A stretch of DNA of 64,000 nt from Alphaproteobacteria bacterium (GCA_030054135.1 JASGCN010000001.1:18013-82012), one strand, 5' to 3'; shown: positions 3,018-59,154, numbered from the stretch's first letter. The notes: generated by a model from the letters alone, not told the origin. Numbers and translations: made by a program.

Positions 3018-3710
3018 ATGCTCATCGTTATAAAAATATCAGGAGAAGCATTAAAAAATGATAGTAATGACATGTACGATAATACAGTATTAAAAATAAT
3101 TGCAACACAGATTAAGCAATTACAAAAGAAACACCGTATCATGATAGTTATTGGAGGAGGTAATATATTTCGAGGAAGAAATATTGATACATTAAAAGGC
3201 ATTGAACGAAGCACTGGCGATTACATGGGAATGCTTGCAACACTTATGAATGCACTTTTACTTCGTGATATATGTACTGCGTATGGAATTGACTCACGAG
3301 TAGTAAGTGCCATTCAAGCAAATCAAATAGTAGAACCAATGATTACTGGAAGAGTTAAAAAACATCTTGAGAAAAAGAGAGTTGTTATTTTTGGTGGAGG
3401 ATTGGGCACACCATACTTTACTACTGATACCACTACCGTACAGCGTGCTCTTGAATTAAAAGCTGATTTAATTATTATGACAAAAAATGGTGTGCAAGGA
3501 GTGTATGACAGTGACCCAAGAACAAACAAAAATGCCATTATGTATAAAGAATTAACCGCAACTGAATCACTGAAAAAGAATCTTACTTTTGCGGATAATA
3601 CTGCAATTGCACTCGCGCGTGAACACAAGATTAAAATAAAGGTGGTTTCTCTGGAAGATCTTACGAGTTTTGAGGATAAAAAAGTTGGAACAATGGTTAT
3701 CCCTGAATAA
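3018..3710 (+). CDS. pyrH: uridylate (UMP) kinase
   Basis: IKISGEAL...VIGGGNIFRG motif of the amino-acid kinase family. Length is ~230 aa. Confidence 0.85.
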   Translation: MLIVIKISGEALKNDSNDMYDNTVLKIIATQIKQLQKKHRIMIVIGGGNIFRGRNIDTLKGIERSTGDYMGMLATLMNALLLRDICTAYGIDSRVVSAIQANQIVEPMITGRVKKHLEKKRVVIFGGGLGTPYFTTDTTTVQRALELKADLIIMTKNGVQGVYDSDPRTNKNAIMYKELTATESLKKNLTFADNTAIALAREHKIKIKVVSLEDLTSFEDKKVGTMVIPE

Positions 3711-4982: not shown

Positions 4983-5582
4983 ATGACAGCAATTAAACAC
5001 CCAGCTCAACGTGTCGGCGTATTCATTGACACACAAAACTTATATCACAGTGCAAGAAATTTATACAAAGCAAGAGTAAATTTTGATTCAGTGGTAAAAT
5101 ACGCGGTAGACGGACGATACATCGTTCGTGCACTTGCATATGTTATTACCACAGAATCTGGAGAAGAAGCAAATTTTCTTGAAGCTCTTGGGGAGGCAGG
5201 AATTGAAACACGATCAAAAGAATTACAAATTTTTCATGACAACAGCAAAAAAGCAGATTGGGATGTAGGTCTTGCTGTGGATATGATTTCTCTTGCAGAA
5301 AAATTAGATGTAATTATTCTCATATCAGGAGATGGAGATTTTATACCTGCACTTGAATACTTAAAAAGAAAAGGTTGTCAAATTGAAGTTGCTTCATTTG
5401 TACAATCGACTTCACAAAAACTTGTTGAATGTGCAGATACCTTCATTGATCTTTCACTTGAATCTGAAAAATTTATATTTGGATATACTCCAGTGAGAAC
5501 ATCTCATTCTCGACAACAAAAATCTCCACACAGATATAAAACAAATGCTCCACAAAAAAGAAGGATGAGAAGAAATTCTTAA
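4983..5582 (+). CDS. NYN-domain (LabA-like) protein, predicted RNase
   Basis: VGVFIDTQNLYHSA...ISGDGDF motifs of the NYN/LabA PIN-like fold. Basic C-terminal tail. Confidence 0.7.
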   Translation: MTAIKHPAQRVGVFIDTQNLYHSARNLYKARVNFDSVVKYAVDGRYIVRALAYVITTESGEEANFLEALGEAGIETRSKELQIFHDNSKKADWDVGLAVDMISLAEKLDVIILISGDGDFIPALEYLKRKGCQIEVASFVQSTSQKLVECADTFIDLSLESEKFIFGYTPVRTSHSRQQKSPHRYKTNAPQKRRMRRNS

Positions 5583-52525: not shown

Positions 52526-52620
52526 AGAACAATTCTAGTATACTGAATTGTTTTTTATTTTGCTTATAGTGGATATATCTTTTTTTTGTAATTTAGTTTA
52601 CAATATATTTCATAGCGCAT

Positions 52621-52707
52621 GGAAGGATGGCTGAGTGGTTGAAAGCACCCGTCTTGAAAACGGGCAGGCGCGTAAGCGTCTCGAGAGTTCGAATCTCTCT
52701 CCTTCCG
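52621..52707 (+). tRNA. tRNA-Ser (anticodon TGA), long variable arm
   Basis: Acceptor ggaagga/tccttcc. Anticodon stem cccgt/acggg with loop cttgaaa. Long variable arm gcaggcgcgtaagcgtc. T arm gagag-ttcgaat-ctctc. 87 nt. Confidence 0.8.
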
Positions 52708-52760
52708 CAATGTATTCATTGTACAAAGTTCGAATGTATTTTGAGCAAAACCCTAATGAT

Positions 52761-52913
52761 GAATGAATCGTTCCGCCACTGCCTCGCAAAGCCTCGGCAA
52801 CCCCGAAAGAAAAAACACTCCTTACATTTCTGATTTGGTGGGGGTGAAATTTCTTTTGAAAAAGGAAAGGGTGTTTTTCTTTCGGGGTTCTGCCTTCCAA
52901 GTATTCAGGCAGG
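52761..52913 (+). ncRNA. candidate structured ncRNA: ~150-nt long irregular hairpin with central bubble (6S-RNA-like architecture)
   Basis: Outer stem gttccgccac(tgcct)/(aggc)gtggcggaac, ~15 bp. Internal loop of 16 nt on the left and 19 nt on the right. Inner stem ccccgaaagaaaaaacac/gtgtttttctttcgggg, ~17 bp. Apical sub-hairpin. Higher GC than surroundings. The strand is not determined. Confidence 0.4.
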
Positions 52914-52922
52914 TGGCGGAAC

Positions 52923-53082
52923 AATGCGGACGAAGTTTTGGCAAAACTATTTTTTGGGGAAAGGATTTGCCAAAACTTCGGCTCATTTGTTTTTGAATTC
53001 GGATGTCGCAGATGGAAAAGGAGGGGTTTGGGGAGGAATTTTCCATTTGCTCCTCTGATTTCTTTTGGCGAAATTCTGGCAT
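52923..53082 (+). repeat. GC-rich structured repeat element, left copy (contains 15-bp perfect hairpin 52931-52945/52966-52980)
   Basis: Homologous to the inverted copy at 56441-56574. Begins aatgcggacga. Hairpin stem cgaagttttggcaaa/tttgccaaaacttcg with 20-nt loop. Conserved ggaggggtttggggaggaatttt and tttcttttggcgaaattc blocks. Confidence 0.7.
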
Positions 53083-53163
53083 TGAGAAAAGAATGGGAAG
53101 CTGATATAATTCTATTGCAAGTCATAAGAGTATTATATCACTTTCCATACATTATAGTCTACT

Positions 53164-53364
53164 ATGTCCACAATAGGGAAAAACATCAAAAAATTTAGGC
53201 AAGAAAAAGGGCTTTCGCAAGATAAGCTCTCAAAACTTTCTGACCTTTCATTAAATACTGTTGTTAAAATAGAGTTGGACGATACCCCTAACCCTACCAT
53301 TGAGACAATGCAAAGGATCGCGAAAGCCCTTGTAGTATCAGTTGATGATTTACTCAAAAAATAG
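53164..53364 (+). CDS. XRE-family helix-turn-helix regulator, probable controller (C) protein of the R-M cassette
   Basis: 66-aa HTH (KFRQEKGLSQDKLSKLSDLSLNTVVKIE). First gene of the cassette, 2 nt upstream of the methyltransferase gene. Confidence 0.6.
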   Translation: MSTIGKNIKKFRQEKGLSQDKLSKLSDLSLNTVVKIELDDTPNPTIETMQRIAKALVVSVDDLLKK

Positions 53365-53366
53365 TT

Positions 53367-54197
53367 ATGCAAAAAACTACCGAACAAATTAAATACAAAT
53401 CCGTGCAAACAGTTTTCAATAAACCATTTTTTGCTTCCAGCGATGGTGTCATTAAAATTTATCAAAATGATGCCATTAATTTTTTGAAATCATTGCCAGA
53501 TAATAGCGTTGATTTAATAACAACAGACCCTGCATATTCTGGAATGAATCAAATGTTGAAATTAGGAAAAGGTAAAATAATAGGAACCTACAAAGATAAG
53601 GGCGAAAATGGTGCAAAATGGTTTGAGGAATTCCATGATACGGAAAAAAACTATGCCGAATTTTTAAATGAATGTAAAAGAGTTTTAAAGAATGATAGAC
53701 ATATTTATATTATGTTTGACTCCTATTCTTTATTATCTCTTGCACCGATGGTTCGTCAAATTTTTGATGTTAAAAACATTTTATGCTGGGATAAGGCCAA
53801 CATTGGGCTTGGTCATTATTTCAGAAGAAGACACGAGTTTATTCTATTTGCTAGTAAGGGCAAAAGGCACTTAAAATCAAAAGCTATACCAGATGTATGG
53901 AAAATTAAAAGAGTGACTAAAATAAAATATCCAACTCAAAAACCGACAGAAATCTTTGAGTTGATGATTAAAGGAAGTGCCGAAGACGGATTTGTTGTTT
54001 GCGATCCATTTCTAGGAAGCGGTTCGGCGATGATTGCAAGTATAAAAAATAATTGTAATTTTATTGGTTGCGATATTTCTGAAAAATCAATCAATATATC
54101 TAAACAAAGAGCTGAAGAGTTTTTTAAAACTGGAAAAGACATTTTGCAACCCCAATCATTGCTTTCTGATGATAATTTAACCAACAAACTATTTTGA
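53367..54197 (+). CDS. DNA methyltransferase, beta-class amino-MTase (N6-adenine or N4-cytosine)
   Basis: Motif IV-like LITTDPAYSG near the N-terminus. Motif I VVCDPFLGSGSA near the C-terminus. ParB-like/N-MTase domain order typical of beta-class R-M methylases. Confidence 0.7.
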   Translation: MQKTTEQIKYKSVQTVFNKPFFASSDGVIKIYQNDAINFLKSLPDNSVDLITTDPAYSGMNQMLKLGKGKIIGTYKDKGENGAKWFEEFHDTEKNYAEFLNECKRVLKNDRHIYIMFDSYSLLSLAPMVRQIFDVKNILCWDKANIGLGHYFRRRHEFILFASKGKRHLKSKAIPDVWKIKRVTKIKYPTQKPTEIFELMIKGSAEDGFVVCDPFLGSGSAMIASIKNNCNFIGCDISEKSINISKQRAEEFFKTGKDILQPQSLLSDDNLTNKLF

Positions 54198-54198
54198 T

Positions 54199-55866
54199 AT
54201 GGCAAATTTAAATAAATCTAAAACAATTTTTGCCTTCACATCGCCGAGAACTATTGAAAAAATAATTCCCGAGATTCAAATTTTGATTGACGGATATACT
54301 GGCAAAAAATGGAATAGTGAAACACAAGAAGCATTTTTTAATGATCTTTTTGGGTCTGAGTTTTATGAGGGAAAAGAAAAACCTAAAGATATAACCTTTG
54401 CTGCAAGAGATAGAATCACAAGAGCTCCGAAAGCACTTGGCTTTGTTGATTTAAAACCAGTCATAAAATTAACCGAGGTAGGACAGCAATTATTAAGTGG
54501 CAAGAGAATAAATGAAGTAATAGCAAGACAGTTATTAAAATTCCAACTACCGTCGCCATATCATAAAGTACCAGAAGAAAGAGATTTTAATGTTCGTCCA
54601 TATTTAGAATTATTGAGACTTGTCAAAACCATAGGCAACATTTCAAAAACAGAAATAGCCATATTTTTTGTACAATTAACAAACTACAAAAAATTTGATG
54701 AGATAGTCCGAGCGATTAAAGAATATAGATCTGATTATTCGGCACATACAGGAAATAAAAAAGCCTTTATTGATTCAATTTTTACAAAAGAGATATTGAA
54801 AATTTATGAAGAAGATATAGAAAACGAAGAATTTAAAGGCAGGCAAGATAATGATACTACTTTGCAAGATTTTATAGCTAGAAAGAAAAGTAATCATATT
54901 GATTATGCAGACGCTCTTATTCGATATTTGAGAGCAACACAACTAATAACTTTTGATAAAAATTTTAGAATTATAGTTGCTCCGTCTCGTAACGCCGAGG
55001 TGGATTTTATTTTGCAAAATATAGAAAGAAAGGCACTATTATTTAAAAATGAACAGACTTTTAAAACTTATTTATTTAGTTCAAGCACTTTAGAGCTATT
55101 AACTGATAAGAGAGAAAACGTAGAAAAACAACTGAGTAAAATTGGAGTTGGTTATGATGAAAAAGCAACAGTTGAAGATCTAAAAGACTTATTAGAAAAA
55201 ACCGAAACGGATAGAGTTAATCAAGCAATAGCTCAAACAGAAAAAGGACTCAAGGACTACAAAGAGTTTGATGATATTTTAAGTATATTCGATAAGATAG
55301 ATCAAAAAATCGTCCCCGACCCCTCGCTATATTTAGAATGGAACATTTGGCGTTCAATGGTAATGATTAACTATGCAAAAAAAGTGCAAGGTAATTTTAA
55401 ACTTGACTTAGACGGAGTCCCACTTAATACCGCTGGGGCAAGAATGCCCGACATAGAGATAGATTATGAGAATTTTAAAATGATCGTTGAAGTTACGATG
55501 TCGTCAGGACAAAAACAATATGACATGGAGGGCGAACCAGTACCAAGACATTTTGGAAACGCCAAAAGTTCAACAAATAAGCCTGTGTATTGTTTGTTTA
55601 TCGCTCCTAAAATAAGCGAGGGAACACTCGCTCACTTTTTTGCATTAAATCAAAAAGCTCCTAAATTTTACGGTGGACAAACAAACATAGTCCCTATGAA
55701 TTTAGGAAATTTTAGGCAATTTATCACAACTGCAAAAAATAATAATTTTAATAATCCAAACAACTTACAAGGATATTTAGATAACTTATTGAAACAAAAT
55801 AGGACGATTGATGATGAAGCTGTATGGTTTAAAAATATCGAGGAGTCGGTCGGTCAATGGGTGTAA
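54199..55866 (+). CDS. putative restriction endonuclease partner of the adjacent methyltransferase (555 aa)
   Basis: Assigned by context only (C-protein/MTase/large ORF with tight spacing). No catalytic motif recognised confidently. Confidence 0.35.
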   Translation: MANLNKSKTIFAFTSPRTIEKIIPEIQILIDGYTGKKWNSETQEAFFNDLFGSEFYEGKEKPKDITFAARDRITRAPKALGFVDLKPVIKLTEVGQQLLSGKRINEVIARQLLKFQLPSPYHKVPEERDFNVRPYLELLRLVKTIGNISKTEIAIFFVQLTNYKKFDEIVRAIKEYRSDYSAHTGNKKAFIDSIFTKEILKIYEEDIENEEFKGRQDNDTTLQDFIARKKSNHIDYADALIRYLRATQLITFDKNFRIIVAPSRNAEVDFILQNIERKALLFKNEQTFKTYLFSSSTLELLTDKRENVEKQLSKIGVGYDEKATVEDLKDLLEKTETDRVNQAIAQTEKGLKDYKEFDDILSIFDKIDQKIVPDPSLYLEWNIWRSMVMINYAKKVQGNFKLDLDGVPLNTAGARMPDIEIDYENFKMIVEVTMSSGQKQYDMEGEPVPRHFGNAKSSTNKPVYCLFIAPKISEGTLAHFFALNQKAPKFYGGQTNIVPMNLGNFRQFITTAKNNNFNNPNNLQGYLDNLLKQNRTIDDEAVWFKNIEESVGQWV

Positions 55867-56423
55867 GTATCATTTTTATGACGAGTGATTTGATGACAAT
55901 ACTTAGTTTAATAATCGGAATACTCGGTTTAGTTGTGACTTTGGCTGGGACATATTTTGCCTATATTTCGTTTGTAAATCCGATAATAAGGTTCAAAAAA
56001 TATCTGAAAAATCCTGAAAATTGGGAAAAGTTTCAAGGCATAGACGATCATCTTTCTTTTTATCGCCATAAAAAATATCCTAATTTCCAAATTGTTGTAG
56101 ATTGGGATAAAGAACTTGTGGAAAATTTTCACGAGGAGTGGATAAATGACGGTCTTTATCCCGACAAAACAAACAACGCCTCTTATTATGTTCGGTTAGA
56201 GGCTAATGCAATGTTGTTAGAAAAGGAACTGTTTGTTTCTTTGGACGGACATCGATATTTTGTGCCAGTACCAAAAGTTTTGAGTGTAAAAAATGACGAA
56301 AGAGAGTTTTATTACGACAAGCAACAAGTTCAATTAGCAAAAATTGTTGGACGACATCATTTCGAGAAAGATATTTACGATTTTGCCAAAGAGTGTAAAA
56401 AGCCCATAATGATCAAGGAATAG
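55857..56423 (+). CDS. hypothetical protein with N-terminal TM helix, last gene of the cassette
   Basis: 188-aa ORF overlapping the preceding gene by 10 nt. One N-terminal hydrophobic helix. Confidence 0.35.
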   Translation: MGVSIIFMTSDLMTILSLIIGILGLVVTLAGTYFAYISFVNPIIRFKKYLKNPENWEKFQGIDDHLSFYRHKKYPNFQIVVDWDKELVENFHEEWINDGLYPDKTNNASYYVRLEANAMLLEKELFVSLDGHRYFVPVPKVLSVKNDEREFYYDKQQVQLAKIVGRHHFEKDIYDFAKECKKPIMIKE

Positions 56424-56440
56424 TTTTTCAATCTAGTTGC

Positions 56441-56574
56441 CCGAAATTCGCCAAAAGAAAACAGCGGAGCAAGCGGAGAATTCCTCCCCAGACCCCTCCT
56501 GCGGGCGGGAAATCAGCCGAGGCAAGGCGAATCCATTCCCCCGATAAATAGTTTCGCCTTGCCTCGTCCGCATT
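56441..56574 (-). repeat. GC-rich structured repeat element, right copy (inverted; contains 14-bp perfect hairpin 56518-56531/56553-56566)
   Basis: The reverse complement aligns along its length with 52923-53082. Hairpin stem cgaggcaaggcgaa/ttcgccttgcctcg differs from the left copy by paired compensatory changes. The loop is similar. Confidence 0.7.
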
Positions 56575-56676
56575 AGTATTTTTAATCATTTGGATTTTCT
56601 TGGAAAAACATTCGAACTTTGTCCAACAAACACCGCAATGTATTCAGGAAAGAATAATCTGGTGTATTATAAAAAT

Positions 56677-59154
56677 ATGCAATTTAGTCCTGAAATCTTT
56701 GAAAAAAAGTGGCAACAAAAATGGCAAGAGGACAATGTATATCGGACTGAGAATTTTACTGATACACCACACTGCTTTGTGTTGGATATGTTTCCATATC
56801 CATCGGGAAGCTCAATGCATGTGGGACATCCTCGTGGGTATGTGGCAACAGATATTTACAGTCGCTTTAAAAGAATGAATGGATTTAATGTATTGCACCC
56901 AATGGGATGGGATGCGTTTGGTCTCCCTGCGGAAGAAACTGCAATAGAGAATAAAGAATATCCAACAGAGACAGTGGAGAGAAATATTAAAAAATTTAAA
57001 ATTCAGCTCAATATGCTTGGACTTGGGTACGATTGGTCTCGAGAAATTAATACCACCGATCCTGAATATTATGTGCATACGCAAAGAATTTTTCTTGAAT
57101 TTTTTAAACGAGGGCTTGCAACAAATAAAACTATTCCTGTTAATTGGTGTGAAGAATTGGGCACCGTGCTTGCAAACGAAGACATAGTAGACGGAAAAAG
57201 TGAACGCGGAGGACACCCCGTGTTTCAAAAACCAATGCGTCAATGGATTCTTGCGATTACAAAATATGCAGATCGTCTTATTGATGATTTAGATTTATTA
57301 GATCAATGGCCTGAAAAAATAAAAAATGCACAGCGCAACTGGATTGGTAGAAGTGAAGGACATGAATTTTCTTTTTCAACAAGTGCGGGCATTCCTATTT
57401 CCATATACACTACAAAAATTGAAACGCTCCCGGGTGCCACTTGTGTAGTGGTTGCTCCAGACGGAGAACTCACAGAGCAGTTGCTTGCTACCTCTACCAA
57501 CGCACAACAAATTAAAAACTATATAACACAAAGCAGTCAAAAAACAACTTTAGAAAGACAAGCGGTTACAGAAAAAACAGGAGTAATTATTGAAGGCGTT
57601 ACTGCAACAAATCCATTTACAAAAGAACAAATACCAATTATAGTTTCTGATTATGTACTATCTTCATACGGAACAGGAGCAATTATGGCAGTTCCTGCAC
57701 ATGATGAACGCGATAGTGAAATTGCAAAAGTTTTTAATATAGAATCACGCACAGTAATTGAACATGATGTGCTCGTACACGCGCACGCATTAAATGGAAA
57801 AACGGTTGAGGAGGCGCGAACAATCCTTTCTGACATGGTTGATGCAAAAAAACAAAAACGCTACAAAATTCGTGATTGGGTTTTTTCAAGACAGCGATTT
57901 TGGGGTGAGCCGTTTCCTATTGTATGGATTGAAGGAAAAAATAATTATGAATTAGTAGCACAGGGGCCAGTTGGTGCGTGGCTACCAAAAGAAGCAGTGA
58001 TGTATATTCACGATGGAAAAGAACAATACGCCGTACCAGTATTGCCTGAATTTTTACACACAATGCAATTGCCAAAAGTTGCTTCATATCAGCCAACAGG
58101 AACTCTTGAAGGGCCACTTGCGGGCATTGATACATGGGTCAATGTGTTTCTTGATCCAACAACAGGGGCAATTTCACAAAACAAAGAAACTACACACGCA
58201 ATTCCTGCACGAAGAGAAACAAATACTATGCCTCAATGGGCGGGCTCTTCGTGGTATTGGTTTCGATACATGGATACAAAAAACAAAGAACTTCCTTTTT
58301 CAAAACAATCTGTTGATTACTGGGGGCCGGTACACATATATGCAGGAGCAGATCATGCCGTTGCACATTTGATTTATGCACGGTTCTGGCACAAAGTTAT
58401 GCAAGACGCAGGTATGGTTGATTTTCCAGAGCCATTTACACGATTAGAATTTCTTGGATACATTCTTGCACCAGACGGCTCAAAAATATCAAAAAGAAAA
58501 GGGAACAGTCGTTCTCCAGAAGATGTCATCAACACTGTTGGCGCAGATGCATTTCGTATGTATGAAATGTTTATAGGTCCGTTTGAAAAGTCAGCTCCTT
58601 GGAGTGATGATGGGCTTGTTGGATCACGCAGATTTCTTGAACGAGTGTGGCGTCTGCATGAATCAGTAGTTGAAAAAAATGTAGCCACTACAGATGCACA
58701 CGCACTTTCATCAATTCACAAAACAATACAGAAAGTGGGAAACGACATTGAAACATTTAAATTTAATACTGCCGTTTCAAGTATGATGATTTGCTTAAAT
58801 GAAATACAAGATGTAGATATTGCTGTCGCAGATTTTAAACATTTCATTTCTATTCTTGCACCATTTGCACCACACATAACAGAAGAGATGTGGCATGTGA
58901 TGGGACACACATCGTCAATTCATCTCTCTACATGGCCCACAGTAAATAAAAGTGTCATTCGTCAAGAAAGTATCACAGTACCAATCCAAATTAATGGAAA
59001 AGTACGATCACAAATTGATGTACCGATGGATATGCCTGAAAAAGAACTTGAAACACTTGCTCTTGAAGATGCAGCTATTCAAAAACATCTTTCTGGAAAA
59101 ACCACACAAAAAATAATAATAGTACCTAATCGTATCGTGAATATACTGGTGTAA
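56677..59154 (+). CDS. leuS: leucyl-tRNA synthetase
   Basis: HIGH-region P.PSGS.HVGHPRGY. Editing CP1 domain. KMSKS-like KISKRKGN. The start was moved to ATG 56677 (MQFSPEIFEKKWQQKW); the track ORF begins at 56590 inside the repeat element. Confidence 0.9.
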   Translation: MQFSPEIFEKKWQQKWQEDNVYRTENFTDTPHCFVLDMFPYPSGSSMHVGHPRGYVATDIYSRFKRMNGFNVLHPMGWDAFGLPAEETAIENKEYPTETVERNIKKFKIQLNMLGLGYDWSREINTTDPEYYVHTQRIFLEFFKRGLATNKTIPVNWCEELGTVLANEDIVDGKSERGGHPVFQKPMRQWILAITKYADRLIDDLDLLDQWPEKIKNAQRNWIGRSEGHEFSFSTSAGIPISIYTTKIETLPGATCVVVAPDGELTEQLLATSTNAQQIKNYITQSSQKTTLERQAVTEKTGVIIEGVTATNPFTKEQIPIIVSDYVLSSYGTGAIMAVPAHDERDSEIAKVFNIESRTVIEHDVLVHAHALNGKTVEEARTILSDMVDAKKQKRYKIRDWVFSRQRFWGEPFPIVWIEGKNNYELVAQGPVGAWLPKEAVMYIHDGKEQYAVPVLPEFLHTMQLPKVASYQPTGTLEGPLAGIDTWVNVFLDPTTGAISQNKETTHAIPARRETNTMPQWAGSSWYWFRYMDTKNKELPFSKQSVDYWGPVHIYAGADHAVAHLIYARFWHKVMQDAGMVDFPEPFTRLEFLGYILAPDGSKISKRKGNSRSPEDVINTVGADAFRMYEMFIGPFEKSAPWSDDGLVGSRRFLERVWRLHESVVEKNVATTDAHALSSIHKTIQKVGNDIETFKFNTAVSSMMICLNEIQDVDIAVADFKHFISILAPFAPHITEEMWHVMGHTSSIHLSTWPTVNKSVIRQESITVPIQINGKVRSQIDVPMDMPEKELETLALEDAAIQKHLSGKTTQKIIIVPNRIVNILV

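What the first reader, a model, noticed from the sequence alone, without database searches (positions are those of the whole stretch)
52931..56566. Compensatory base changes preserve a 14-15-bp hairpin in the two repeat copies (structural covariation)
Left stem cgaagttttggcaaa/tttgccaaaacttcg versus right stem cgaggcaaggcgaa/ttcgccttgcctcg. About half the stem positions differ, yet both arms changed together so perfect pairing is kept. The ~20-nt loops (actattttttggggaaaggat versus actatttatcgggggaatgga) stay similar. Covariation implies selection on structure (RNA element, or DNA cruciform recognised by a transposase or recombinase), not mere sequence drift.
Basis: seen in the sequence. Interest (0 to 1): 0.7.

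Follow-up and report, generated by a model that had tools for sequence, protein, structure and literature searches.

The report
Hairpin-rich inverted ends of mobile defence cassette
The two hairpins are real and their compensatory stem changes hold up in over 100 related copies; they sit in the long inverted end-repeats of a restriction-modification gene cassette, one of a widespread and apparently undescribed cassette family in Patescibacteria that lodges at tRNA gene ends and is linked to a large serine recombinase.

Summary
Perfect 15-bp (52931-52980) and 14-bp (56518-56566) hairpins have similar ~20-nt loops and stems that differ by 5 substitutions plus 1 indel per arm, all compensated.

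The two copies are inverted relative to each other. They lie in 200-370-nt terminal inverted repeats (TIRs) that flank a C-protein / methyltransferase / AlwI-like endonuclease cassette. The cassette sits between tRNA-Ser and leuS and is bounded by a 14-bp direct repeat.

The same TIR occurs at least 115 times in 100 public MAG loci, almost all Patescibacteria. It always occurs as inward-facing pairs around variable cargo, which is dominated by R-M and other defence genes. No recurrent transposase was seen.

Across the copies, both this hairpin and a second one (loop GGAGGGGTNTGGGGAGGAA) keep their loops while the stems covary. In the wider alignment 24 of 27 pairs show double changes and 94.5% of cells are paired, against 74% in shuffles. 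G-U intermediates are almost absent.

A large serine recombinase lies next to these TIRs in about 13 loci. In 51 of 60 independently fetched recombinase loci it abuts a tRNA 3' end.

Best reading (inferred): the hairpins are folded-DNA recognition modules in the ends of recombinase-mobilised cassettes. An RNA-level role is not excluded. The window's two stems are pre-existing alleles joined by recombination, not in-situ drift.

The parts
52621..52708 (+). tRNA-Ser(UGA) gene. The cassette starts at its 3' end.
   Evidence: ARAGORN; Rfam tRNA 60.8 bits.
52705..52718 (+). Left copy of the 14-bp direct repeat CCGCAATGTATTCA. It covers the last 4 nt of the tRNA plus 10 nt.
   Evidence: blastn and longest common substring. 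The part TGTATTCA also matches the TIR terminus of L105.
52719..52769 (+). Outer terminal segment of the left TIR (TTGTACAAAGTTCGAATG...).
   Evidence: Aligns with the right end and with the termini of L018, L105 and L061.
52770..52923 (+). 'Hairpin 0': an optional ~155-nt long hairpin module closed by GTTCCGCCAC/GTGGCGGAAC. It is absent from the right TIR.
   Evidence: Inverted repeat I22 and the alignment gap. The same module is present in many family copies.
52931..52980 (+). Hairpin 1, left copy (the finding): 15-bp stem of the majority allele GGCAAA/TTTGCC, 20-nt loop.
53008..53050 (+). Hairpin 2, left copy: GCAGATGGAAAA / loop GGAGGGGTTTGGGGAGGAA / TTTTCCATTTGC (12 bp, one G-T pair).
53051..53081 (+). 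Inner segment of the left TIR (TCCTCTGATTTCTTTTGGCGAAATTCTGGCA). The repeat ends here.
   Evidence: I1 arms 53019-53081 / 56438-56500, 87% complementary.
53082..53110 (+). Best sigma-70-like promoter of the cargo operon (TTGAGA-17-TATAAT, with TG), starting exactly at the TIR boundary.
   Evidence: Similar sequence follows the TIR in L118, L002 and L031.
53164..53364 (+). Cargo: 66-aa HTH_3 controller (C) protein.
   Evidence: Pfam PF01381, 5e-13.
53367..54197 (+). Cargo: N6/N4 DNA methyltransferase.
   Evidence: Pfam PF01555, 1e-30.
54199..55866 (+). Cargo: AlwI-family restriction endonuclease.
   Evidence: Pfam PF09491, 9e-54.
55857..56423 (+). Cargo: 188-aa ORF with an N-terminal hydrophobic segment, function unknown.
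   Evidence: Also called as a gene on the Logan contig L001.
56438..56468 (-). Inner segment of the right TIR.
   Evidence: (I1).
56469..56509 (-). Hairpin 2, right copy. The loop is intact (GGAGGGGTCTGGGGAGGAA) but the arms do not pair: the 5' arm CCCGCCCGCA is of the L032 type and the 3' arm TTCTCCGCTTGC is of the L011 type. It is a recombinant joined in or at the loop.
56518..56566 (-). Hairpin 1, right copy (the finding): 14-bp stem GAGGCAAGGCGAA/TTCGCCTTGCCTC, 21-nt loop. Its closest relative is the right TIR of L032, which differs by one more compensated pair.
56567..56636 (-). Outer terminal segment of the right TIR, 'compact' type (GCGGTGTTTGTTGGACAAAGTTCGAATG...).
   Evidence: Same type as the termini of L036/L119 and L070.
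56633..56646 (+). Right copy of the 14-bp direct repeat CCGCAATGTATTCA, just upstream of leuS.

Best explanation
**Shown**
- The two hairpins are homologous modules ('hairpin 1') inside long terminal inverted repeats.
- The repeats bound a 3.9-kb cassette (controller protein, methyltransferase, AlwI-like endonuclease, one unknown ORF). The cassette is inserted at the 3' end of tRNA-Ser.
- The TIR belongs to a very widespread family in Patescibacteria. The family has modular ends: an outer terminus TGGTG... that mirrors a tRNA 3' end, optional hairpin modules, hairpin 1, hairpin 2 and an inner segment.
- In the family the loops are conserved. Loop 1 is RCWWTTTTYTGGGG-A/T-GGA and loop 2 is GGAGGGGTNTGGGGAGGAA; both contain TTTGGGG.
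- The stems vary freely but stay complementary, almost always as Watson-Crick pairs.
- Loop orientation relative to the flanks never flips.
- Cargo is variable and mostly R-M or other defence genes.
- A large serine recombinase (LSR) of one family lies just outside such TIRs in about 13 loci. The recombinase gene is itself bracketed by perfect inverted repeats and sits exactly at tRNA 3' ends.

**Inferred**
- The cassettes are moved or exchanged by this recombinase. For recombinase-less cassettes such as the one in the window it would act in trans.
- The hairpins act as folded DNA (an extruded cruciform or a single-strand hairpin). The stem only has to pair, and the loop is read sequence-specifically by the recombination machinery or an accessory protein.
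- The window's left and right stems are two old alleles of this module. They were combined by recombination between elements, as the broken chimeric hairpin 2 at the right end also indicates.
For: **TIR and cassette anatomy**
-.

**Family size and architecture**
- Of the copies found, 115 are of the Patescibacteria (CPR) type and 20 carry the same loop on other stems.
- Pairs are always inward-facing.

**Cargo**
- Pfam and PADLOC summaries are dominated by methyltransferases, restriction enzymes, GmrSD, SMODS and OLD. No transposase appears among the recurrent families.

**Covariation**
-; stem allele lists.
- One-sided (G-U) changes: 12 cells. Double changes: 161 cells.
- Several copies have an ~80-nt insertion inside the hairpin-1 loop with both arms kept.
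- Loop orientation is fixed: 100 to 0 for hairpin 2 and 67 to 0 for hairpin 1.

**Recombinase link**
- Pfam domains Resolvase + Recombinase + Zn_ribbon_recom.
- Homologues sit next to the TIRs in L006, L013, L014, L016, L052, L070, L071, L089, L094, L099 and L119.
- In L071 the inverted repeats around the recombinase gene carry the G-rich-loop hairpin.
- Among 80 recombinase loci fetched independently of the hairpin, 51 of the 60 with enough downstream sequence have a convergent tRNA 62-128 nt past the stop codon. Ten tRNA identities are represented.
- A G-run-loop hairpin lies 50-650 nt upstream of the recombinase in 15 of 47 loci by a strict detector, plus about 7 more with long imperfect stems. 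The same detector hits 6 of 344 control windows.

**Recombination between alleles**
- Chimeric hairpins have their junction between the arms.
- In L036/L119, 5 of about 9 left/right differences cluster at the apex of hairpin 1.
Against: - No recombinase homologue is present in the 64-kb window, so mobilisation in trans is assumed.
- Large serine recombinases are known to act on ~40-50-bp duplex sites. None is known to need hairpins (established knowledge).
- Only the window element has a clear direct repeat (14 bp). Five other complete elements have none longer than 5-8 nt.
- No excised circle or empty site was found.
- Single transitions in stems give G-T versus A-C at about 7 to 4. This does not single out one strand.
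- T-rich tracts follow hairpins 1 and 2 in the inward direction. This would also suit an RNA or terminator role.
- The Pfam summary shows only the 25 commonest families, so a rare transposase or integrase in single cassettes could have been missed.
Confidence: 0.5

Rival explanations
1. RNA-level element. Each TIR is transcribed inward, from the flanking tRNA or host gene or from a promoter in the terminus. The hairpins then act in RNA as insulators or terminators that stop read-through into a toxic R-M cassette, as stabilising stem-loops, or as a protein-binding small RNA. The GGA/GGAGG-containing loops would suit CsrA-like or ribosome binding.
For: - Covarying stems with conserved loops is the classical RNA signature.
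- Loop orientation is fixed and G-rich on the inward-reading strand at both ends.
- T-rich tracts (GCTCATTTGTTTTTG...GATTTCTTTTGG) follow hairpins 1 and 2 in that direction.
- The element sits directly behind highly transcribed tRNA genes.
- Large insertions inside the hairpin-1 loop and extra small helices resemble the peripheral variation of structured RNAs.
Against: - No Rfam family matches, even at E <= 10.
- The terminator scan finds nothing at the hairpins. The loops are ~20 nt and the T-tract is 5-8 nt from the stem.
- No sigma-70-like promoter lies in the TIR.
- G-U pairs are nearly absent: 1 of about 520 cells in hairpin 1. This is unusual for RNA helices.
- The loop motif tracks a recombinase gene rather than any cargo gene or cargo orientation.
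Confidence: 0.25
2. No selection on folding. The perfect stems are a by-product of palindrome maintenance, in which one arm is copied from the other by template switching or hairpin-templated repair. The different stems spread by gene conversion among many TIR copies, so 'compensation' is automatic.
For: - Stems are almost always perfect Watson-Crick, with very few wobble intermediates.
- Left and right TIRs of one element are often 97-100% identical, which shows active homogenisation.
- Differences between ends cluster as patches.
Against: - Chimeric copies with 2-5 mismatches persist (about 5 of 62 for hairpin 1, about 8 of 69 haplotypes for hairpin 2, including the window's right hairpin 2). 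Arms are therefore not corrected automatically.
- Loops are conserved across stems that share no sequence, which points to purifying selection on a hairpin-presented motif.
- There is no flip-flop of loops, which hairpin-primed copying would produce.
Confidence: 0.15
3. Ordinary dyad-symmetric duplex binding sites. A dimeric protein (the recombinase or a regulator) binds the two arms as half-sites in double-stranded DNA. The arms change together because both must fit the same protein, and no hairpin ever forms.
For: - Arm-spacer-arm length (12+19+12 = 43 bp for hairpin 2) is in the size range of serine-integrase att sites (established knowledge).
- The recombinase is adjacent in many loci.
Against: - Within otherwise near-identical TIRs, hairpin-1 arms take at least 7 unrelated sequences while the spacer is conserved. 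This is the opposite of what half-site recognition predicts.
- The conserved centre of hairpin 2 is a purine mirror repeat, not a dyad.
- Stem length varies from 9 to 18 bp and tolerates an 80-nt insertion in the 'spacer'.
Confidence: 0.07

Closest known systems
Staphylococcal/enterococcal cassette chromosome elements (SCCmec and relatives; Ccr large serine recombinases)
   Same: - A large serine recombinase.
- Insertion at the 3' end of a conserved housekeeping gene.
- Cassettes with or without their own recombinase stacked at one site.
- Cargo that includes R-M and other accessory genes.
- Short repeats of the target end at cassette borders.
   Different: - The target here is the 3' end of many different tRNA genes, not rlmH.
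- The borders are 130-450-nt inverted repeats built from covarying hairpins with conserved G-rich loops. SCC has only short imperfect inverted repeats.
- The recombinase gene is itself bracketed by perfect 77-211-nt inverted repeats and occurs in both orientations.
- The hosts are Patescibacteria.
Tycheposons of Prochlorococcus (bioRxiv 10.1101/2020.12.28.424599)
   Same: - Cargo-carrying elements that integrate next to tRNA genes and pile up in tandem.
- They leave remnants, carry adaptive or defence cargo, and sometimes use a large serine recombinase (27 of 937 elements per that paper).
   Different: - Tycheposons mostly use tyrosine recombinases, are flanked by direct partial-tRNA repeats and often carry replication genes.
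- The paper does not mention hairpins, and its only occurrence of 'inverted repeat' is in the reference list.
Integron attC sites
   Same: - Recombination sites defined by folded single-strand structure rather than sequence.
- Stems covary between cassettes.
- The cassettes carry no mobility gene of their own and depend on a platform-encoded recombinase.
   Different: - attC sites lie in direct orientation, one per cassette, and are used by a tyrosine recombinase (IntI).
- In attC the conserved boxes are in the stem and the centre is variable. Here the loop is conserved, the stem is free, the sites come as inverted pairs, and the linked enzyme is a serine recombinase.
IS200/IS605 subterminal hairpins and REP/RAYT elements (HUH Y1 transposases)
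   Same: - Imperfect palindromes at element ends that work as single-strand DNA hairpins.
- Stem covariation.
- Cargo-less or non-autonomous derivatives mobilised in trans.
   Different: - Those elements have no terminal inverted repeats, and both hairpins are on one strand.
- They are 20-40 nt long and are served by a Y1 HUH enzyme. No such gene recurs in or beside these cassettes.
Casposons
   Same: - Terminal inverted repeats of variable length.
- Integration at tRNA 3' ends.
- A 14-15-bp target duplication, which is the length of the direct repeat in the window.
   Different: - No Cas1 or PolB appears among cargo families.
- Five other complete elements lack any 14-bp duplication.
- Part of the window's repeat looks like TIR sequence rather than target.

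Membership tests
Any curated structured RNA family (Rfam 15) | Covariance-model match at the family's gathering score | tested here: not met
   The whole window and 18 related loci give tRNAs only. At E <= 10 over 52600-56700 there are only sub-threshold chance hits, for example microRNA-precursor models at 27 bits against a gathering score of 80.
Intrinsic (rho-independent) terminator | GC-rich stem, 3-8-nt loop, U-tract starting 0-2 nt after the stem | tested here: not met
   The terminator scan reports no site at either hairpin. The loops are 20-21 nt and the T-rich tract starts 5-8 nt after the stem.
Large-serine-recombinase cassette element (SCC-like) | A large serine recombinase (Resolvase + Recombinase + Zn-ribbon domains) encoded in or next to the element | tested here: inconclusive
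   Present next to family members in about 13 loci. Absent from the 64-kb window. The rest of the source genome could not be searched.
Large-serine-recombinase cassette element (SCC-like) | Site-specific insertion at the 3' end of a conserved gene | tested here: met
   The window cassette starts at the tRNA-Ser 3' end. 19 of 82 TIR copies with flank are tRNA-proximal. 51 of 60 recombinase loci abut a tRNA 3' end.
Large-serine-recombinase cassette element (SCC-like) | Excision as a circle and a 2-bp crossover at att sites | not testable with these tools
   The junctions of L108 (TG) and L036/L119 (GC) are compatible with a 2-bp crossover. This is inference only. No circle junction or empty site was recovered.
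DDE-type transposon / MITE | Terminal inverted repeats plus a target-site duplication of fixed length | tested here: not met
   TIRs are present. The flanking repeat is 14 bp in the window, and no significant repeat (longest shared string 6-8 nt, as expected by chance) flanks the five other complete elements.
DDE-type transposon / MITE | A cognate DDE transposase in autonomous copies | tested here: inconclusive
   None appears among the 25 commonest Pfam families of 126 cargo proteins or among the large proteins of complete elements. Singletons are not visible in that summary.
Integron gene cassette / attC | One attC per cassette, all in direct orientation, downstream of the gene | tested here: not met
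   Cassettes are bounded by inverted pairs in every case.
IS200/IS605 or REP-RAYT | Y1 HUH transposase (TnpA/RAYT) associated with the hairpins, and no terminal inverted repeats | tested here: not met
   The elements have long TIRs. No such family recurs in the cargo or in 224 flanking ORFs. The only recurrent flank family is the serine recombinase.
Casposon | Cas1 casposase and family-B polymerase; 14-15-bp target duplication | tested here: not met
   No Cas1 or PolB among recurrent cargo families. A 14-bp repeat occurs only in the window element.
Parvovirus-like hairpin telomere (rolling-hairpin replication) | Flip and flop orientations of the terminal palindrome | tested here: not met
   Loop orientation relative to the flanks is 100 to 0 for hairpin 2 and 67 to 0 for hairpin 1.

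The most novel reading that the evidence does not exclude
Patescibacteria carry an integron-like cassette platform built on a large serine recombinase. Defence-gene cassettes would be bracketed by inverted, hairpin-forming ends, and the conserved G-run loops (G4-7 N1-3 G4-7, TTTGGGG) would be read as folded DNA. The loops might even pair the two ends through loop-loop or quadruplex contacts, allowing capture at tRNA 3' ends, inversion, and exchange of cassettes between lineages. This would be a structure-specific site class not known for serine recombinases.
Probability: 0.15. Interest if true: 0.85.

Novelty: new variant of a known kind. Interest (0 to 1): 0.65.

Why it matters
Patescibacteria (CPR) make up a large share of bacterial diversity. 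They rely mostly on R-M systems rather than CRISPR, and how they exchange genes is poorly understood.

A single end-repeat family is nearly identical in sequence across many CPR classes and many sampling sites. It brackets highly variable defence cargo and is tied to one recombinase family that targets tRNA ends. That points to a common vehicle for shuffling defence genes in these organisms.

The hairpins provide a compact, searchable marker for such cassettes. The combination of conserved loops and free stems gives a directly testable hypothesis about structure-specific recognition. If a serine recombinase system really depends on folded DNA sites, that would be new enzymology and possibly a new tool.

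Tried and rejected
- **Protein-coding reading of the repeats.** The 44- and 46-aa ORFs starting MRT... in the two TIRs are frame-shifted relative to each other by the 1-nt stem length difference, so they are not conserved as protein. Rejected.
- **Known RNA families.** No Rfam hit at gathering score or at E <= 10.
- **Viral origin.** The loop motif has 0 hits in viral contigs.
- **Other copies in the window.** None.
- **Empty-site test.** The closest LeuRS relatives are only 69-74% identical and are not syntenic upstream of leuS. No tRNA-Ser/leuS junction without the cassette was found.
- **Exact-protein look-ups.** The endonuclease and the 188-aa ORF returned only the same locus on a Logan contig that breaks inside the left TIR.
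- **Fixed target-site duplication.** Not found outside the window.
- **Strand test (G-T versus A-C single mismatches).** About 7 to 4, uninformative.
- **Flip-flop of loops.** None.
- **GNA-triloop mini-hairpins as a DNA-structure marker.** 26% of triloops near the TIRs against 18% elsewhere, too weak to use.
- **Co-variation of recombinase clade with loop sequence.** 66% versus 60% mean identity, weak.
- **Sigma-70 promoter inside the TIR.** None. The best promoter starts at the TIR's inner edge and belongs to the cargo.
- **Literature.** Searches combining Patescibacteria/CPR, inverted repeats, R-M, serine recombinase and tRNA found no description of this family in the held library.

Full report
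**1. The observation**

- The left hairpin has 15 perfect pairs (52931-52945 with 52966-52980) around a 20-nt loop.
- The right hairpin has 14 perfect pairs (56518-56531 with 56553-56566) around a 21-nt loop.
- Each folds far better than its shuffles: z = -5.6 and -5.8, with 0 of 200 shuffles as good.
- The two are homologous and inverted relative to each other. Read in the same sense they share the flanks AATGCGGACGA...TCGGCT(C/G)ATTT and most of the loop.
- Inside the stem, five positions are substituted and one base pair is missing, and every change is mirrored in the other arm.
- There are only two copies in the window.

**2. What surrounds the hairpins**

The hairpins lie in terminal inverted repeats.
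- The left repeat runs from about 52719 to 53081 and the right from 56438 to about 56636.
- Between them are four co-oriented genes: a 66-aa HTH controller protein, an N6/N4 DNA methyltransferase, an AlwI-family restriction endonuclease and a 188-aa ORF of unknown function.
- A strong promoter-like site starts exactly at the inner edge of the left repeat.
- The unit sits between tRNA-Ser(UGA) and leuS.
- It is bounded by a 14-bp direct repeat, CCGCAATGTATTCA. The left copy overlaps the last bases of the tRNA.
- The left repeat carries an extra ~155-nt long hairpin (52770-52923) that the right one lacks.
- Each repeat also has a second hairpin, with loop GGAGGGGTNTGGGGAGGAA.
- The short ORFs that run through the repeats are out of frame with each other and are not coding.
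- No Rfam family matches.

**3. The family**

I scanned one genome per species for the best-conserved 21-mer of the repeat (the hairpin-2 loop).
Viral contigs gave none.
- 115 copies in 100 loci are the same repeat, often nearly identical over 130-330 nt. They come from MAGs of many Patescibacteria classes and many independent studies, plus short contigs binned elsewhere.
- Wherever both ends are on one contig they face inward, 2.8-10 kb apart. Many contigs break inside the repeat.
- The ends are modular. The order is an outer terminus (TGGTGY...ATTGTACMAAGYTCGAA), optional modules, hairpin 1, hairpin 2 and a ~45-nt inner segment.
- L061 has the minimal form, with the terminus joined directly to hairpin 2.
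- Several copies carry an ~80-nt insertion inside the hairpin-1 loop with both arms retained.
- Left and right ends of one element are usually 97-100% identical. The window, L032 and L105 combine ends of different types.

**4. Cargo**

- 273 ORFs inward of the repeats fall into 212 clusters.
- The recurrent Pfam and PADLOC families are DNA methyltransferases (several classes, including a LexA-fused one), restriction endonucleases, type I subunits, GmrSD, SMODS, SDH-type protease and McrB-like ATPases.
- Large proteins of complete elements are helicase-nucleases, an ABC transporter or unknowns.
- No transposase or integrase family is recurrent. That summary lists only the 25 commonest families, so rare ones could be missed.

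**5. Covariation**

MAFFT alignment of 56 distinct copies spanning both hairpins:
- 96.3% of cells are paired.
- 12 pairs have changes on both sides, against 3.7 +/- 1.1 in column shuffles (0 of 500) and 1-3 when partners are slid.

Covariance-model alignment (model) that adds more distant copies found next to recombinase genes, 40 distinct sequences:
- 94.5% of cells are paired, against 74.4% in shuffles.
- 24 of 27 pairs have double changes, against 15.2 in shuffles and 6-12 slid.
- The covariation score is 0.419 against 0.122.
- This second alignment is fitted to the structure and leans towards it. The first is not.

Hairpin-1 stems seen, each internally complementary:
- ...GGCAAA, GCAAAA, GCGAAA, GCCAAA, GCGGAA, GCGGAG
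- GAGGCAAGGCGAA (window right)
- GGCAGGGCGAA (L032)
- CTCGGTTTTGCGAA (L064)
- CTCGGAAAAGTGAAA (L149)
- GGAAAATGGAAA (L193)
- GGCAGGACGA (L198)
- CACTCCGCC (L083)
- GTCGCCGCC (L126)

The loop keeps the consensus RCWWTTTTYTGGGG-(A/T-rich)-GGA throughout.

Hairpin 2 behaves the same way over a wider range. The loop GG(A/G)GGGG-T-N-T-GGGG(A/G)GGAA sits on stems as different as GCAAATGGAAAA, GCAAGCGGAGGA, CCCGCCCGCA, GGGCGGGCGGAA, GCCAGCCCTTCCCGCCAA and GTGGCGGAA.

Two further features stand out.
- One-sided (wobble) changes are rare: 12 cells against 161 double changes. Hairpin 1 has one G-U in about 520 cells.
- The loops never occur flipped relative to the flanks: 100 to 0 and 67 to 0.

**6. Recombination between alleles**

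- About 5 of 62 hairpin-1 copies and about 8 of 69 hairpin-2 haplotypes are chimeras. They join the 5' arm of one allele to the 3' arm of another, so the junction lies in the loop.
- The window's right hairpin 2 is one of these. Its 5' arm CCCGCCCGCA pairs perfectly in L032, and its 3' arm TTCTCCGCTTGC belongs to the allele seen intact in L011. The hairpin is therefore broken in the window.
- Some chimeras could be assembly artefacts. The window's is also present on an independent Logan contig.
- Within one element (L036/L119), five of about nine differences between the two ends cluster at the apex of hairpin 1, including a compensated G-C/A-T pair.
- In L013 the two ends differ by a compensated C-G/G-C pair in hairpin 2.
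- The window's two stems are therefore best seen as two long-standing alleles brought into one element, not as divergence in place.

**7. The recombinase and tRNA link**

- Clustering 224 ORFs from the outer flanks gave one recurrent family, a large serine recombinase. Its domains are Resolvase + Recombinase + Zn-ribbon.
- Homologues lie just outside the repeats in about 13 loci, in both the Patescibacteria-type family and the 'other-stem' families.
- The geometry is constant. The order is tRNA 3' end, then the recombinase gene transcribed towards the tRNA, then the cassette.
- The recombinase gene is itself bracketed by perfect 77-211-nt inverted repeats, and the tRNA-side arm begins in the last 3-5 nt of the tRNA.
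- In L071 those inverted repeats carry the G-rich-loop hairpin.
- L099 shows a ScaI R-M plus OLD-family cassette with 158-nt hairpin-bearing ends beside such a recombinase and a tRNA array.

As an independent test I fetched 80 metagenome loci using the recombinase protein alone.
- 51 of the 60 with enough downstream sequence have a convergent tRNA 62-128 nt past the stop codon. Ten tRNA identities are represented.
- Two loci have the module in the opposite orientation.
- A G-run-loop hairpin lies 50-650 nt upstream in 15 of 47 loci by a strict detector, and in about 7 more with long imperfect stems. Control windows give 6 of 344.

Other points on tRNA targeting:
- Of 82 repeat copies with at least 1.5 kb of outer flank, 14 have a tRNA within 900 nt and 9 have the recombinase within 3.5 kb. 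In five recombinase-adjacent loci (L006, L014, L016, L052, L094) a tRNA lies just beyond the recombinase.
- The outer terminus of the repeat (TGGTG...) is the reverse complement of a tRNA 3' end. The distal end of an element therefore repeats the tRNA end: GCACCA in L108 and CCGC... in the window.
- The window itself has no recombinase homologue.

**8. How it most likely works**

Shown: structure-preserving variation with sequence-conserved loops; a place in the ends of a mobile, cargo-variable cassette family; physical linkage of that family to one serine-recombinase family at tRNA ends.

Inferred:
- The recombinase moves or exchanges the cassettes. It would act in trans for cassettes like the window's.
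- The hairpins act as folded DNA in which only pairing matters in the stem and the loop is read.

I favour DNA over RNA for four reasons: wobble pairs are almost absent, the stems are perfect palindromes, the motif follows a recombinase rather than any gene or transcription direction, and no promoter or canonical terminator is seen.

The RNA alternative (an insulator or terminator behind tRNA genes, or a protein-binding RNA) remains reasonable. Loop polarity is fixed and T-rich tracts follow both hairpins in the inward direction.

Automatic arm-to-arm copying is made less likely by persistent chimeras, by loop conservation and by the absence of flip-flop. Plain dyad-symmetric duplex sites are unlikely because the arms, not the centre, are the variable part.

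What remains unexplained:
- How a serine recombinase, which is known to use duplex sites, would use hairpins.
- Why only the window element has a 14-bp direct repeat. Part of that repeat (TGTATTCA) looks like TIR terminus rather than target.
- Why every module is bracketed by long perfect inverted repeats.

**9. Comparison and novelty**

- As a whole element it works most like SCC-type cassette elements and like tycheposons. The shared features are a site-specific recombinase, insertion at a conserved gene's 3' end, and stacked cassettes with or without the enzyme.
- The hairpins work most like integron attC sites or IS200/IS605/REP hairpins, in that structure rather than stem sequence is conserved.
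- It fails defining features of each of these families (see the membership table).
- I found no description of the family in the searchable literature.
- I rate it a new variant of a known kind: recombinase-mobilised cassettes at tRNA genes, with an unusual hairpin-based end architecture.

**10. Host**

The LeuRS is identical to one from an NCBI MAG labelled Alphaproteobacteria. Its next relatives, at 69-74% identity, are Moraniibacteriota, Falkowbacteria and other Patescibacteria. The window is therefore almost certainly from a Patescibacteria genome.

Noticed in passing
window 56469-56509: The second hairpin of the right repeat is broken. Its two arms come from different family alleles and are joined at the conserved G-rich loop, so this end may be functionally impaired.
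   Followed up: yes
window 52770-52923: A ~155-nt long hairpin module closed by GTTCCGCCAC/GTGGCGGAAC, with a G-rich apex (GGTGGGGGTG), is present only in the left repeat. Related long hairpins with G-run loops occur upstream of recombinase genes (L137, L157, L170, L180, L194, L173).
   Followed up: partly
window 52705-52718 and 56633-56646: The 14-bp direct repeat CCGCAATGTATTCA is unique to this element among six complete ones. Its TGTATTCA part matches the repeat terminus of L105, so it may be element sequence rather than duplicated target. The origin is unresolved.
   Followed up: partly
window 53082-53163; L118, L002, L031 just inside their repeats: The promoter and leader of the controller-protein operon (CATTGAGAAAAGAATGG..TATAAT) recur next to the repeat in other loci. 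This suggests related C-protein-controlled R-M cassettes in distant MAGs.
   Followed up: no
window 55857-56423: A 188-aa ORF with an N-terminal hydrophobic segment overlaps the endonuclease stop codon by 10 nt. It has no Pfam family and its role in the R-M cassette is unknown.
   Followed up: no
L052 371-502 / 1917-2048; L094 3856-3932 / 5350-5426; L099 1527-1618 / 3121-3212; L006, L014, L016, L071: The serine-recombinase gene is bracketed by perfect 77-211-nt inverted repeats that start within the last bases of a tRNA gene. In L120 and L122 the same module (98% identical protein) lies in the opposite orientation to the tRNA, so it either inverts or inserts both ways.
   Followed up: partly
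L108 232-285: Between tRNA-Tyr and the repeat terminus lies a 42-nt palindromic unit (GCACCA-CAAAG...CTTTG-TGGTGC) that begins like the recombinase-module repeat (ACGAAAC). It is possibly the collapsed remnant of a lost recombinase module.
   Followed up: no
L202 1-60 (relative with 74% identical LeuRS): The contig upstream of leuS in the closest relative starts inside a sequence resembling the long G-loop hairpin repeat (GAAAGGAAATTTTTGGTTTTGC) and carries an HTH gene plus unrelated genes. The leuS-upstream region may be a recurrent insertion spot.
   Followed up: no
L016, L018, L032, L082, L111, L117 (module CACGCGCG-N-AGCGCGTG) and recombinase-module repeats: There are many small GC hairpins with G-N-A triloops (GCGAAGC, GCGGAGC, GCGTAGC), a motif known to give very stable DNA mini-hairpins. 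Enrichment near the repeats was only modest (26% against 18% of triloops).
   Followed up: partly
P0001 (LeuRS of window 56668-59151): The source MAG is labelled Alphaproteobacteria at NCBI, but all close LeuRS relatives are Patescibacteria. Several family loci are likewise short contigs binned into unrelated phyla (Nitrospirota, Gammaproteobacteria, Nostocoides), probably mis-binned.
   Followed up: partly
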